64,000 nt of DNA from Escherichia coli (GTDB taxonomy: Bacteria; Pseudomonadota; Gammaproteobacteria; Enterobacterales; Enterobacteriaceae), in NCBI RefSeq assembly GCF_030013205.1, contig NZ_CP122648.1; one strand, 5' to 3'. The position numbers were made by a program. This document shows, piece by piece, positions 9,801 to 15,800 of the stretch. Each line of letters opens with the position of its first letter. Position 1 is the stretch's first letter.

Positions 9801-12800
9801 CAGCAACTGCGGCCATAAACGCTCAACGCCGCCCCAGTCGGTTTGCGTCAGCGTTCCGGTGCTCCACAGGAACATGCTTTGTAGCTGGTCGTGATGGAAG
9901 ATAACCAGTAACTGATTGATTGCCCCACAATAAAGGCTCACTACCAGCCCCGCGAGAATCAGCGTTACCGGCGACAGCCGTTTCCCCCACGCGACGCCAA
10001 AGACAATTAAGCCAACAACGCAAGCCCCTGCCAGCGCAGCAAACTGGCTCGCCATCGCGCCGGGGATCGCCCAGAGCGTAGTGACGGTAATCCCCAGTTG
10101 CGCGCCTGTTGCAACGCCCAACGTCGTCGGTTCCGCCAGCGGGTTACGCAGCACTTGCTGAAACAGCACGCCCACCAGCCCCAGGCCCGCGCCCACCAGC
10201 AGCGAAATCGCCAGACGCGGCAACAAGCTGTAGTGAAAAATCATCTGCTCGATGACGTCAATATCCGGCGACCAGGCGGCCTGCGCCCACTGGCTGCGCG
10301 GCAGCGCTTGCGAAAAGTTCATCCAGGTGAGCGCCGCTGCGACAATCACCAGCAGCGCCAGCAATAACGCCGGGAAAAGCGCAATTCGTTTACTCACGCT
10401 TTACCTCCGATGGCGTTATCCAGAATACGCACAAAGTGCATTGCCGAAAGCGTCGCGCCATAGAACCAGACCGCCGGAACGCGCTGAAAACGTCCTGCAC
10501 GGACAAACGGCATGGCCTGCCACAGCGGGGTTGCCATTAGCGCATCCATGTCTTTGCTGTTGTCGTGATCAAAACAGAGCACATCAACGTCTTTATACGC
10601 TGCCAGACGATCGATACTGACGGCGGTACTGCCCCAGAAGTTGGTTTCCCCTTGCCAGGCATTTGGGATGCCGTACTCATCAAGAATTTCCTGGAACAAG
10701 CTGTTTGGACCGAAGACCAACATATGGCGCGGATCGATAAGCGTCGTCAGCAATAACGGGCGTGCACCACGCTTCACAAAGCGGGGTTTCATGCTGCGGA
10801 TAAAGTCTTCATAGTGCGCTAAATGCGTTTCTGCTGCGCTTTGCAGGTTAAGTAAATCTGCCATTTCCGTCAGTGATTTACGCGCCATCGCCAGCGGCTG
10901 TTTGCCGTCACTGAAGTTAAATCCGCGACCCGGCGCAATACGTGCCAGCATTTCTGGTGAAGGGCCATATCCTGCCGACCAGACCATAAACGATGGTTTC
11001 ATTTCGGTCAGCAGTTCAAGGTTAGGTTCTGTGCGCAAACCGACGTCGATCACTGAGTCCGGCAATGGTGGTTCGCTGACCCACAGGCGATAGTTGATGG
11101 TATCCGCCACGCCGTAAGGCACGATGCCGAGCGCCAGCAGTAATTCCACCGGCAACCACTCCAGCGCCACAATACGATTGGGATCAATAGCCGCCGCGTG
11201 GGCGGTATTCATCTGCCATAACAACGGAGAAAGCGCCATCGCCGTTAACAGTCGACGGCGCGAAATAAGAGGTAAGCCGCTCATCAATAAACAAAACTCA
11301 CAGGTGCAGCACCCGCCGGATGCGGCAAAATACCCATCGGGATGCCATAAATCGTTTCGAGGGTTTCGCCGCGCATAATTTCCGCAGGCGTTCCCTGAGC
11401 AATCATTTCACCGCCGCGCAGGGCGACCAGATAATCACAGTAACGCGCCGCCATATTGATATCGTGCAGCACGGCAATGACCGTCAGGCCACGCTCCTGA
11501 CTTAAACGATGCACCAGCGCCAGCACATCAACCTGGTGGGCGATATCCAGCGCCGAGGTCGGTTCGTCGAGCAACAGACAACGGCTATCCTGCGCCACCA
11601 GCATGGCGATCCACGCCCGCTGACGTTCGCCGCCAGAGAGACTATCGACCAGCCGATGCGCCAGCGGTTTTAAGCCAACCAGCGAGATAGCTTCCTCGAC
11701 CTTTTCGCGATCTGCCGCACCAAAGCGCCCTAGTGCGCCATGCCACGGGTAACGACCAATCGCCACCAGTTCACGCACTGTCATCCCTTCTGCCGGAGGA
11801 AGCTGCTGCGGCAAATAAGCCACTTTGCGGGCAAAAGCTTTGCTGCTCCAGCTTTCCAGCGGCTGGGCATCAAGAAGAATCTCCCCTTCCGACGGCGGCT
11901 GATGACGGCCAAGCATTTTGAGCAGAGTGGATTTACCAGAACCGTTGTGACCAATCAGACCGGTCACTTTCCCGGCAGGAAAGGTTAACGACAGCGGATG
12001 CAAAAGCGTGCGCCCGGGCACACGAAAGGAGATATTACGCAGTGCAAAAGTGGTATCGGAATGATTCGTGTATTCCTGCATAACAGCCAACTTGTGAAAC
12101 GGGCACGGAAATCCGTGCCCCAAAAGAGAAATTAGAAGCGGAAGGTTGCGGTTGCAACGACCTGACGTTCTGCGCCCCAGAAGCAGCCATAGGTGTTAAA
12201 GCAGCTGGCGACGTATTCACGATCGAACAGGTTGTTGACATGCAGCGCCACGTTGGAGCCAGCCATGCCGACTCGCGCCAGATCATAACGCACTAACGCA
12301 TCCACGACCGTATAACTTCCCACTTTAAAGGAGTTAGCCGGATCACCATAGCTGGAGCCAGTATAACGACCACCGGTGCCCAGCGTCAGACCTGAAAGCG
12401 GACCGTCAAAGAAGGTATAGTCAGCCCACAGCGAAGCCATGTGTTTTGGCACCTGTGCAGGCGTATTGCCTTTATAGGTAGTGTCGGTGGTGTATTCCGC
12501 ATCGGTGTAAGTATAAGAACCGACTACGTTAACACTCGCCGACAGCGCCGCTTTCGCTTCGATTTCTACGCCACGAGCGCGGATCTCGCCACCTTCAACC
12601 GAGAAGAAGGAACCCTCAGGGTCCGCCATCAGGTTGTTGGTTTTAGTGAGATTATACACGGCACCAGTAACCACAATTGGACGATCTTCCGGTACATATT
12701 TCACGCCGACTTCATACTGCTTACCTTTAGACGGTGCGAAAATATTACCATCCTTCCCAACTTGCGAAGAAGGTTCAAACGATTCGCTATAGCTGAAGTA

Positions 12801-15800
12801 AGGTGTTACACCATTATCAAACAGGTAGTTAACACCACCACGCCAGGTAAACTGTTTGTCATCACGTTTATCGGTCGTTCCCGCTACGCGGTTAAGAGAT
12901 TCTTGATCTGCCCAGTCGTAACGACCGCCCAGGGTGACCAGCACTTTATCCCACTGCGCCTGATCCTGAACATAAACGCCCGTTTGCTTCTGCTTATTCA
13001 GAATGCGGTACGGACCGGAGTTATCCGGGTCTTTCGCATTGAAGTCGAAATCGGTATTCACCGGATTGTACAGATCGAGCAGCGGTACGGAGTCGTCGTA
13101 ACCAAACCAGGCGTTGATGTCATTACGCATACGCATAAAGTCGACACCGGTCAGCAGGGTGTGGTCGATATCGCCAGTGGCAAACTTGCTCTGCAACTGG
13201 GTATCAACGGAGAAGTTTTGCAGCTTCTCATCATCAACGACGTATTTACGTGCTAGGTAGTGACCTTTATCGGCTGGCGCTAAAGCGGCACACTGTTTGC
13301 TGTAAGCATTCGCCGGATCGGAGCAGACGCCGTAACCATAAACGCTGTTTTGCGAGGTTTTGTTTTCAGCAAAGCGCAGGTTCTGACGCACAGTAAAGGT
13401 GTCGTTAAATTCGTGATCGAAGCTATAGCCCACCATCTTCTCATTACGAGAATAGGTGTTGTTCTTCGCCCCTTCGTTAAAATCTGTCGGCAGACGCTTA
13501 CCGTTCGGCAGCGGCTCAACGGTACCCTCTTTCGGCAACCAGCCGTAATAACCGGTTTCCGGCTCGTTCTGGAAGTAAGAAAGGAAGGTGAAATTGGTTT
13601 TATCATCCGGACGCCAGGTGAACGCCGGTGCAATAGCATAACGCTGCTCTTCTGAGCCTTTCTGCTGGGCATTGGCAGAACGCGCAAGACCGGTCAGGCG
13701 ATAAGAGTAAACACCGTCATCATCCAACGCATCGCTAAAGTCAAAACCAGTCTGGAACAGGCTGTCAGTACCGGCTTTAAACTGAACTTCTTTCAGCGGT
13801 TCAGTAGTCGGACGCTTGCTGACCATATTCAACAGACCGCCAGGACTGCTTTTACCGTAAAGCACGGAAACCGGGCCACGCATAATTTCAGCGCGTTCCA
13901 GCATATACGGGTCAATGACCGCATCGTTATAGAAGTTGCCCTGCAACTTCAGGCCATTCAGATAGTTATTCTGGCTTTGGCCTTCTGCCGCAAAGCCGCG
14001 AATGATCAGGTGGTCATAGGTGTTGGATGCGCCACGCGTACCAACAGAGACACCCGGCGTGTAGCTAAGCGCCTCTTTTACTGACTTCGGCTGATGCAGC
14101 GCCATCTCTTCGGCGGTCACAACAGAAATAGACTGTGGCACTTTTTGAATCGGCGTATCAGTTTTGGTGCCGGTAGCGGACTGTCGCGCCGCAATAGTTG
14201 CAGCTGGCCCCCATGCGCTTTCTTGCGGCGCAGGTGCAGCGGTAACGGTGATAGTGTCTTCTTTCGGTTCAACCGCTGCCTGTGCATAAACAGACATGCC
14301 GCTAACCGCTGTGGCTACTACAACTGCGATTTTACGCAGTGAGTGTTTTGGCTGAGCAGTTTTGGAACGCGCCATTGGTATATCTCTGATGTAAAGTGAA
14401 TGATAACGTAAACGAGAATGATTATTATAAAGATAAGATAATATTCGAAACGCTGGCGGGTTCGCAAGCGGTACGCAATCTGAGCGTTCCTGAAGGGTTA
14501 ATAAACAACCAGATGAAAAGAAAGGGTTAATACTTTGGGTGGGATGTTATTTTACCGGATGGCTACTCGCCATCCGGTATGTCACGCTTAGACGTTAATT
14601 ACTACCAAACATATCCTTGATCCAACCGGCTACACCGTCGCTGTCTTTCTGCTCTTGCTGAGCAGGTTGCTGTTGCGGCTGTTGCTGCGGCTGAGAAGAC
14701 TGATCAAACGGATTGCCTGACGGCTGCTGCTGCATCTCACTCTGCTGGCACAGCGATTGCGGATCGCTGGTCCAGACCGGCAAGACACGCATACCACCGC
14801 TGCAAACAAAGTTGCCGTCGTAGTCCACGCCCATATCTGCAATATCTTCTGGCGGAACAAGATTTAGCGGCGTTGGCGTCTGGTTAGCCAGATAACGCTG
14901 ATAAATCGACATTGCCCCGCTGGCTCCATACAGTTTGGTCGGCTGGTTGTTATCACGGCCGACCCAGGTGATGGTCACCGTGCTGCCGTCAATGCCCGCA
15001 AACCAGGTATCTACGTTATTGTTGGTAGTCCCTGTTTTCCCTGCCAGATGCAGGTTCGGGTATTTCGCCCCAAGCTGACGCCCCGTACCACGTTGTACCA
15101 CCTGCTGCATGGTCCATAGTGTCAGATATGCCGCCTGCGCCGGAACCGCGCGTTCTGCCTGCGGGAAGCTCTGATACAGCACCTTGCCATCTTCTGCGAT
15201 GACTGAACGCAGCGCAGAAAGCGGTGCACGGTTACCACCGCTGGCGATGGTCTGGAATGCCTGCGCCACTTCGATTGGCGTTAAGTTCAACGCCCCCAGC
15301 AGCATTGCCGGAACCGGATGCAGCTGATCTTTCGGTACGCCCAGTTTAATCCAGGTCTCCGTAACCGCAGGCAGCCCCAGCGCCATCCCCAGATTCACCG
15401 TCGGCACGTTCATCGAACGGGTCAACGCATCCACCAGCATCACTCTGCCGCTTTCGCTATAACGACGGTCATCGTTCTGCGGTGACCAGACCTGGCCATT
15501 CGGCTGACGTAGCGCGATTGGCGCATCCGCAATCCACGTGTTCAGGCGATAGATTTTCGGCTGGCTTAAGGCCGTCAGATAAGTCGCTGGTTTTGCAAGA
15601 GAACCAATCGAACGACGCGCCTGCATCGCACGGTTGTAGCCCGCAAACTGCGGCTCAGAACCACCGACCATCGCACGAACTTCACCACTAAAGCGGTCGA
15701 CGACCACAATCGCAGTTTCAAGATCGCTCAACTTACGCTGTTTCTTCAGTGCCGGAATGCCTTCCACGGCGGCTTTTTCTGCCGCGTCCTGGGCCACCGA

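What the first reader, a model, noticed from the sequence alone, without database searches (positions are those of the whole stretch)
12132..14437. Intact fhuA with upstream Fur box
fhuA encodes a full-length 747-aa ferrichrome receptor with no frameshift or deletion in frame, and has a Fur-box-like element (14413-14437) in its promoter. Many laboratory lineages carry fhuA/tonA lesions, so the intact gene suggests the source strain should be sensitive to T1/T5/phi80-type phages and albomycin.
Basis: partly seen in the sequence, partly recalled or inferred. Interest (0 to 1): 0.15.

Follow-up and report, generated by a model that had tools for sequence, protein, structure and literature searches.

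The report
Ordinary intact fhuA with Fur box
This is the normal, undamaged gene for the E. coli outer-membrane ferrichrome transporter FhuA with its usual iron-responsive promoter, in a wild pig-associated strain rather than a laboratory one, so finding it intact is the expected state and nothing new.

Summary
Window 12132-14375 (- strand) is one 747-aa ORF that scores as the FhuA equivalog (1473 bits, cut-off 803). It sits in the standard order mrcB-fhuA-fhuC-fhuD-fhuB-hemL, and all four fhu genes are full length. The 158 nt upstream of the ATG are identical to K-12, whose fhuA promoter is Fur-repressed.

All three are common natural variants. E. coli B also has A183, O157:H7 has D401, and position 418 varies among alleles. 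Residues 401 and 418 lie in surface loop L5. No inactivating lesion was found.

The 64 kb is 99.99% identical to O139:H1 strain W13-16 from a wild boar, and the fhuA stretch is identical in pig ETEC isolates, so this is not a laboratory lineage. fhuA matches in 5424 of 5426 complete E. coli genomes, so intact is the default. An intact receptor is needed for T1/T5/phi80 and albomycin sensitivity but does not predict it, because O-antigen shielding, prophage exclusion lipoproteins and TonB status lie outside the window. Verdict: already known, low interest.

The parts
12132..14375 (-). fhuA coding sequence, 747-aa precursor plus stop codon
   Evidence: ORF. NCBIfam NF007465 'ferrichrome porin FhuA' equivalog, 1473.4 bits against a cut-off of 803, covering residues 1-747. 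3 amino-acid and 52 of 2244 nucleotide differences from K-12. Matches solved FhuA chains 8a60, 8a8c and 1by3 over residues 34-747.
14277..14375 (-). Signal peptide, precursor residues 1-33
   Evidence: Identical to K-12. The solved mature chains start at query residue 34, AVEPKE. Coordinates calculated from codon positions.
14244..14258 (-). TonB box DTITV, mature residues 7-11
   Evidence: Read directly from the translation (..AVEPKEDTITVTAAP..) and identical to K-12. The assignment as TonB box rests on established knowledge of FhuA.
13836..14150 (-). Plug (cork) domain, precursor residues 76-180
   Evidence: Pfam PF07715, 82 bits, E 5.4e-23.
12228..13616 (-). TonB-dependent receptor beta-barrel, precursor residues 254-716
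   Evidence: Pfam PF00593, 219.5 bits, E 2e-64.
13020..13097 (-). Extracellular loop L5 (mature residues 394-419), carrying two of the three differences from K-12 (N401D and A418D)
   Evidence: Loop limits from Table S1 of PMC10373560. Substitutions. Position 418 is A, V, D, N or Y among 12 sampled alleles.
14414..14432 (-). Fur box, CTTTATAATAATCATTCTC, 14 of 19 to consensus
   Evidence: Identical to K-12. Its core is invariant in 9 strains. Fur repression of the K-12 fhuA promoter was shown with lacZ fusions (PMC4676285).
14438..14467 (-). Candidate sigma-70 promoter, TTGCGA, 18-nt spacer, TATTAT. A perfect TATAAT at 14424-14429 inside the Fur box is an alternative -10.
   Evidence: Consensus scan, 9 of 12. 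The TATAAT was read directly. The transcription start was not mapped here. With either -10 the Fur box overlaps the -10 to +1 region (inference).
14554..14578 (-). Perfect 10-bp hairpin (ACCGGATGGC, loop GAGTA, GCCATCCGGT) just after the mrcB stop codon. No T run follows it on this strand.
   Evidence: Read directly. Conserved in K-12 with one change in the loop. Not flagged by the terminator scan. Its role is not tested.
11284..12081 (-). fhuC (ABC transporter ATPase), 265 aa, full length
   Evidence: tblastn against K-12 FhuC covers residues 1-265, 99.2% identical, no gaps.
10394..11284 (-). fhuD (periplasmic binding protein), 296 aa, full length
   Evidence: tblastn covers residues 1-296, 99.3% identical, no gaps.
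8415..10397 (-). fhuB (permease), 660 aa, full length
   Evidence: tblastn covers residues 1-660, 99.5% identical, no gaps.

Best explanation
This is the ordinary, functional fhuACDB operon of a wild pig-associated E. coli lineage. FhuA is a 22-strand beta-barrel with an N-terminal plug. It binds ferrichrome at the cell surface and passes it to the periplasm using energy from TonB, which engages the TonB box. FhuD and FhuBC then carry the substrate into the cytoplasm. When iron is plentiful, Fe2+-Fur binds the operator that overlaps the -10/+1 region of the fhuA promoter and blocks RNA polymerase. When iron is scarce, the operon is derepressed. The same surface loops and lumen are used by phages T1, T5 and phi80, colicin M, microcin J25 and albomycin. 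The allele is of the K-12 type and differs from K-12 only by three common natural polymorphisms. Shown here: gene identity, intactness, synteny, identity of the promoter to K-12, and the natural occurrence of the three variants. Inferred from K-12 work: transport, Fur repression and receptor activity.
For: - Single 747-aa ORF.
- FhuA equivalog HMM at 1473 bits against a cut-off of 803; Plug and barrel domains.
- Gap-free alignment to solved FhuA chains over the whole mature protein.
- 52 nucleotide differences from K-12, affecting only 3 of 747 codons at the protein level, which points to strong purifying selection.
- A183 is shared with E. coli B REL606. D401 is shared with O157:H7 and 6 other sampled alleles. 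D418 is shared with A0 34/86 and SC455.
- The exact protein is on record on at least 1000 contigs and is annotated as intact FhuA, WP_000124417.1, in W13-16.
- fhuC, fhuD and fhuB are full length, and gene order is the same as in K-12.
- The 158 nt upstream of the ATG are identical to K-12, and the Fur-box core is invariant across 9 strains.
- Fur repression of the K-12 fhuA promoter has been shown (PMC4676285).
- Residues 401 and 418 lie in loop L5. In the FhuA used for the pb5 complex structure this loop carries a His6 tag after residue 405 (10.1101/2022.09.22.509047).
Against: - No function was measured. Expression, transport and receptor activity are all inferred from near-identity to K-12.
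- The Fur box is a weak consensus match (14 of 19) and is not statistically distinctive on score alone within the window.
- Loop EL5 makes 8 of the 27 hydrogen bonds to T5 pb5 (PMC9586334). Two added negative charges there could shift the affinity of some ligands. I could not check whether residues 401 or 418 are contact residues.
Confidence: 0.95

Rival explanations
1. The gene is intact, but the L5 substitutions N401D and A418D change receptor specificity. The allele would still transport ferrichrome but bind some FhuA-dependent phages, colicin M or microcin J25 less well. That would make it a phage-escape variant rather than a K-12 equivalent.
For: Both changes add negative charge in surface loop L5. 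Position 418 is the most variable site among the sampled K-12-type alleles (A, V or D, and N or Y in the divergent types). EL5 contributes 8 hydrogen bonds to pb5. Deleting L5 moderately affects several FhuA-dependent phages (PMC10373560). FhuA loop apexes are known hot spots of variation (10.1101/320069).
Against: Deleting any single loop other than L8 had only modest effects on T5 sensitivity, and point mutants that abolish T5 binding were not obtainable. FhuA carrying a His6 insertion in the same loop still forms the pb5 complex. D401 is the majority state among the sampled alleles (8 of 12).
Confidence: 0.1
2. The gene carries a hidden loss-of-function missense lesion, the outcome the reader named as refuting the finding.
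For: There are three amino-acid differences from K-12, and no functional assay was possible.
Against: Each of the three variants occurs in other intact natural alleles, including that of E. coli B, which by my own knowledge is the classical T1 and T5 host. The exact protein is seen on at least 1000 contigs. Only 3 of 747 codons differ at the protein level among 52 nucleotide differences. Every residue other than 183, 401 and 418 is identical to K-12, including the signal peptide, TonB box, plug and C-terminal Phe.
Confidence: 0.02
3. The Fur-box-like element is a chance AT-rich match, and fhuA in this strain is not controlled by Fur through it.
For: The match is only 14 of 19. Similar scores occur elsewhere in the window, and far better ones lie inside yacH coding sequence.
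Against: The sequence is identical to the K-12 promoter, which is Fur-repressed. The core is invariant across strains whose coding sequences have diverged to 78-87% identity. Only 1.6% of shuffled spacers reach the score. It fits the ChIP-exo Fur motif at 11 of 13 positions.
Confidence: 0.02

Closest known systems
E. coli K-12 FhuA (b0150, NP_414692.1; solved structures 1BY3, 2FCP, 8A8C, 8A60)
   Same: Same length (747 aa) with a gap-free alignment and 744 of 747 identical residues. Signal peptide, TonB box and plug are identical. The promoter and Fur box are identical over 158 nt. Neighbours are the same: mrcB upstream and fhuCDB-hemL downstream.
   Different: S183A, N401D and A418D (mature numbering). 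52 nucleotide differences, 97.7% identity. The fhuB-hemL spacer is about 123 nt shorter than in K-12.
FhuA of E. coli O139:H1 W13-16 (WP_000124417.1) and pig ETEC isolates
   Same: 100% identical DNA over 2701 nt spanning the end of mrcB, fhuA and the start of fhuC. 99.99% identical over the whole 64-kb window.
   Different: Nothing within fhuA. Elsewhere the window differs from W13-16 by 7 SNPs, a 9-nt deletion near 18681 and a 36-nt duplication in degP.
FhuA of E. coli O157:H7 (WP_000124416.1) and E. coli B REL606 (WP_000124402.1)
   Same: K-12-type alleles of 747 aa. O157:H7 shares A183 and D401, and E. coli B shares A183.
   Different: O157:H7 differs at one residue (A418). E. coli B differs at three: V120A, N401 and A418.
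Divergent natural fhuA allele families (CFT073 type, 752 aa; FDAARGOS_497 type, 729 aa)
   Same: Same locus, and nearly the same promoter and Fur box.
   Different: 89.5% and 74.0% amino-acid identity to the window, with indels in surface loops such as L5. The window allele does not belong to these families.
Laboratory fhuA lesions, for example fhuA2 of NEB 5-alpha
   Same: Same locus.
   Different: NEB 5-alpha fhuA is split by an IS4-like element and annotated as two partial pseudogenes (PMC5105096 listed). The window has no insertion, frameshift or stop.

Membership tests
FhuA, ferrichrome porin (NCBIfam NF007465 equivalog) | Whole-protein HMM score above the curated equivalog cut-off | tested here: met
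   1473.4 bits against a cut-off of 803, covering residues 1-747 and profile positions 1-726 of 726. The next equivalog, FoxA, scores 575.7 against a cut-off of 1300 and so fails.
FhuA, ferrichrome porin (NCBIfam NF007465 equivalog) | TonB-dependent transporter architecture: N-terminal plug followed by a beta-barrel | tested here: met
   Pfam Plug at residues 76-180 and TonB_dep_Rec_b-barrel at residues 254-716. Gap-free alignment to solved FhuA chains.
FhuA, ferrichrome porin (NCBIfam NF007465 equivalog) | TonB box, signal peptide and ligand-binding residues as in characterised K-12 FhuA | tested here: met
   Every residue except mature 183, 401 and 418 is identical to K-12, so these features are preserved by identity. 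Which residues bind ferrichrome comes from established structural work, not from a test here.
FhuA, ferrichrome porin (NCBIfam NF007465 equivalog) | Genomic context: first gene of fhuACDB, between mrcB and hemL | tested here: met
   mrcB, fhuA, fhuC, fhuD and fhuB are all full length and collinear with K-12.
FhuA, ferrichrome porin (NCBIfam NF007465 equivalog) | Ferrichrome transport, and receptor activity for T1, T5, phi80, colicin M and albomycin | not testable with these tools
   Needs growth-promotion and plating assays. Inferred from 99.6% identity to K-12 FhuA.
Fur-repressed promoter (Fur regulon) | Fur-box sequence (19-bp consensus or 15-bp 7-1-7 motif) | tested here: met
   14 of 19 to GATAATGATAATCATTATC at 14414-14432. 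11 of 14 specified positions to TGATAATNATTATCA at 14413-14427. 11 of 13 to the ChIP-exo motif TGAnAATnATTcTCA (counted by eye). A weak but real match: 1.6% of shuffled spacers reach it.
Fur-repressed promoter (Fur regulon) | Operator overlaps the core promoter or the transcription start | tested here: inconclusive
   The consensus scan places -35/-10 at 14467-14438, just upstream of the box, and a TATAAT lies inside the box. The transcription start was not mapped and I found no source for it in the paper library.
Fur-repressed promoter (Fur regulon) | Sequence identity to a promoter shown to be Fur-repressed | tested here: met
   The 158 nt upstream of the ATG are identical to K-12. K-12 fhuA promoter-lacZ fusions are repressed by Fur (PMC4676285).
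Fur-repressed promoter (Fur regulon) | Fur binding and iron-dependent repression in this strain | not testable with these tools
   Needs footprinting, ChIP or a reporter assay.

The most novel reading that the evidence does not exclude
The two acidic substitutions in surface loop L5 (D401 and D418, the latter at a site that is A, V, D, N or Y among alleles) could be products of phage- or colicin-driven diversifying selection. They could measurably shift which FhuA-dependent phages or toxins can use this allele. In that case a 'K-12-type' FhuA would not be a uniform receptor across E. coli lineages.
Probability: 0.1. Interest if true: 0.2.

Novelty: already known. Interest (0 to 1): 0.03.

Why it matters
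It matters little. fhuA, its Fur control and its role as a phage and antibiotic receptor are textbook, and this exact allele is already annotated in public genomes.

Two points are useful in practice:
- The window comes from a wild pig-associated E. coli lineage (O139:H1 / ETEC), not from a laboratory strain.
- An intact receptor gene should not be read as predicted phage sensitivity in a smooth, prophage-carrying wild isolate.

Tried and rejected
- **Strict Fur-box search.** A search for the 19-bp consensus with up to 3 mismatches did not find the fhuA site. It found only GAT/CAT-repeat matches at 50864-50906, which map inside yacH coding sequence. I relaxed to 5 mismatches and used shuffles.
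- **Transcription start of fhuA.** I looked in the paper library for a mapped start or a footprinted Fur site in E. coli fhuA. I found regulation data but no coordinates. PMC3621691 concerns the Vibrio cholerae fhuA promoter, so I did not use it for E. coli.
- **Endriss & Braun 2004.** The loop-deletion paper (PMC438571) is not held. I took the loop limits from Table S1 of PMC10373560 instead.
- **pb5 contacts.** I could not determine whether residues 401 and 418 touch T5 pb5. The contact lists are in figures or supplements that are not held, and no coordinates are available to the tools.
- **Rfam.** The gathering-threshold scan found no RNA family inside 12132-14437. The opposite-strand ORFs lie wholly within the fhuA coding sequence, and I did not examine them further.
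- **degP duplication.** I tried to count how many genomes share it. The tool joins overlapping pieces, so coverage does not discriminate. I can only say that none of the 25 rows listed has it.
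Full report
**1. Observation**

Window 12132-14375 on the - strand holds one ATG-initiated ORF of 747 codons with no internal stop. It is the longest ORF over that stretch. The ORFs listed on the opposite strand lie wholly within it, and I did not examine them further.

The protein matches the NCBIfam equivalog model for the ferrichrome porin FhuA over its full length (1473.4 bits, curated cut-off 803). The next model, FoxA, falls far below its own cut-off. Pfam finds the Plug domain (residues 76-180) and the TonB-dependent receptor barrel (254-716). The mature part (34-747) aligns without gaps to solved FhuA chains 8A60, 8A8C and 1BY3.

**2.

Against K-12 MG1655 fhuA (fetched) there are 52 nucleotide differences in 2244 (97.68% identity). 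Only three codons change the protein: S216A, N434D and A451D in precursor numbering, which is S183A, N401D and A418D in the mature protein.

I compared 11 other natural alleles:
- A183 is present in 8 of 12 sampled alleles, including E. coli B REL606. By my own knowledge, E. coli B is the classical T1 and T5 host.
- D401 is present in 8 of 12, including O157:H7.
- D418 also occurs in strains A0 34/86 and SC455. That position is A, V, D, N or Y across the sample.

The window protein differs from O157:H7 FhuA at a single residue. The exact protein sequence is on record on at least 1000 contigs and is annotated as intact FhuA (WP_000124417.1) in strain W13-16.

Residues 401 and 418 lie in extracellular loop L5, defined as mature residues 394-419 (Table S1 of PMC10373560). 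In the FhuA used for the pb5 complex structure, this loop carries a His6 tag after residue 405. [quoted passage not shown]

Residue 183 should sit at the periplasmic end of strand 2. That is my inference from strand alternation and was not verified. Because every other residue equals K-12, the signal peptide, TonB box (DTITV), plug and C-terminal Phe are preserved. I found no sign of an inactivating lesion.

**3. Promoter and Fur box**

The spacer between mrcB and fhuA is 219 nt. Its last 158 nt before the ATG are identical to K-12.

The match is weak:
- It is missed at 3 mismatches or fewer.
- At 5 mismatches or fewer, a shuffled 64-kb window gives a mean of 1.28 hits.
- A shuffled spacer reaches the score in only 32 of 2000 trials.

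The 15-mer TAATAATCATTCTCG fits the ChIP-exo Fur motif TGAnAATnATTcTCA (PMC10164565) at 11 of 13 specified positions. The core TATAATAATCATTCT is invariant in nine strains, including two whose coding sequences are 87.4% and about 78% identical to the window.

K-12 fhuA promoter-lacZ fusions are Fur-repressed (PMC4676285). fhuACDB is listed as Fur-regulated in an ExPEC strain (PMC4145685).

A consensus scan gives TTGCGA, 18 nt, TATTAT at 14467-14438, and a perfect TATAAT lies inside the box at 14424-14429. With either -10 the operator overlaps the -10/+1 region, which fits repression by occlusion. The transcription start itself was not mapped here.

**4. Context**

fhuC (265 aa), fhuD (296 aa) and fhuB (660 aa) follow on the same strand. 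All are full length and 99.2-99.5% identical to K-12. mrcB lies upstream. Gene order is the K-12 order. The inner-membrane half of the hydroxamate and albomycin uptake route is therefore intact as well.

**5. Source of the window**

The stretch from the end of mrcB through fhuA to the start of fhuC is 100% identical to O139:H1 strains from wild boar and pig and to many pig ETEC isolates.

Over all 64 kb the window differs from O139:H1 W13-16 only by:
- 7 SNPs;
- a 9-nt deletion near 18681;
- a 36-nt duplication in degP.

K-12 strains are only 97.7% identical in fhuA. The source is a wild pig-associated lineage, not a laboratory strain.

**6. How informative is "intact"?**

fhuA matches in 5424 of 5426 complete E. 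coli genomes. Three allele families are visible: about 96-99% identity (K-12 type, to which the window belongs), about 86-87% (CFT073 type) and about 78%.

In 60 records taken at even steps down the ranking, only three were not annotated as a single complete fhuA gene. These are NEB 5-alpha, where an IS4-like element splits the gene, and two partial matches. Intactness is therefore the default state and carries little information.

**7. Phage and albomycin sensitivity**

An intact FhuA is necessary but not sufficient.
- Restoring the O16-type O-antigen in K-12 blocked all but 5 of 61 tested phages, and the host ranges of the tested siphoviruses were consistently narrow (PMC8594841).
- The T5 lipoprotein Llp, and its distant relatives the Cor lipoproteins of T1 and phi80, act as superinfection-exclusion factors. 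Llp binds FhuA from the periplasm and blocks pb5 and albomycin binding (PMC9586334).
- TonB/ExbBD (needed for T1, phi80 and albomycin), pepN, the O-antigen locus and the prophages are all outside the window.

The closest relatives are serotyped O139 and so presumably make O-antigen.

**8. Verdict**

The feature is already known and of low interest.

The only mildly open point is whether the acidic L5 variants D401 and D418 change ligand specificity. I rate that at about 10%.

**9. Noticed in passing**

The most notable item elsewhere in the window is a 12-aa in-frame tandem duplication (SPFCQEGSPFQS) in degP. It is absent from the closest relative.

Noticed in passing
window 1-1098 (- strand; degP, cut by the window start), duplication around 775-860: degP carries a 36-nt in-frame tandem duplication that adds SPFCQEGSPFQS (12 aa, including one extra cysteine). 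By my own knowledge this is the Cys-containing LA-loop region. The duplication is absent from the near-identical strain W13-16 and from all 25 listed best matches among complete E. coli genomes, whose record span is 315 nt against a 351-nt query. It could be a real strain-specific variant or an assembly artefact.
   Followed up: partly
window about 18681 (by coordinate mapping, within hrpB): 9-nt in-frame deletion (GCGCCCGGC) relative to O139:H1 W13-16. Apart from the degP duplication it is the only indel in 64 kb, alongside 7 SNPs.
   Followed up: no
window 50864-50906: The best Fur-consensus matches of the whole window (2-3 mismatches; none of 100 shuffles gave three such matches) are a run of GAT/CAT triplets. 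By coordinate mapping to W13-16 they fall inside the yacH (DUF3300) coding sequence. They are probably a codon repeat rather than an operator. This shows that consensus score alone does not identify Fur sites here.
   Followed up: partly
window 8382-8412 (fhuB-hemL spacer): The spacer between the convergent genes fhuB and hemL is about 31 nt here and 34 nt in W13-16, against about 154 nt in K-12 MG1655. K-12 therefore has about 123 extra nt, possibly a REP-type element. This was not examined.
   Followed up: no
window 1093-1138 (-) and 58192-58305 (+): These are the only Rfam matches above the gathering score in the window. One is the HtrA 5' UTR thermometer in front of degP (77 bits). The other is the sRNA family tp2 (103 bits).
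   Followed up: no
window about 29465-30083 (by mapping from L002 4609-5227): In the fimbrial operon next to panB, one fimbrial-like gene is annotated as frameshifted with an internal stop in the near-identical strain W13-16. There is no difference from W13-16 in that part of the window, so the same lesion should be present here.
   Followed up: no
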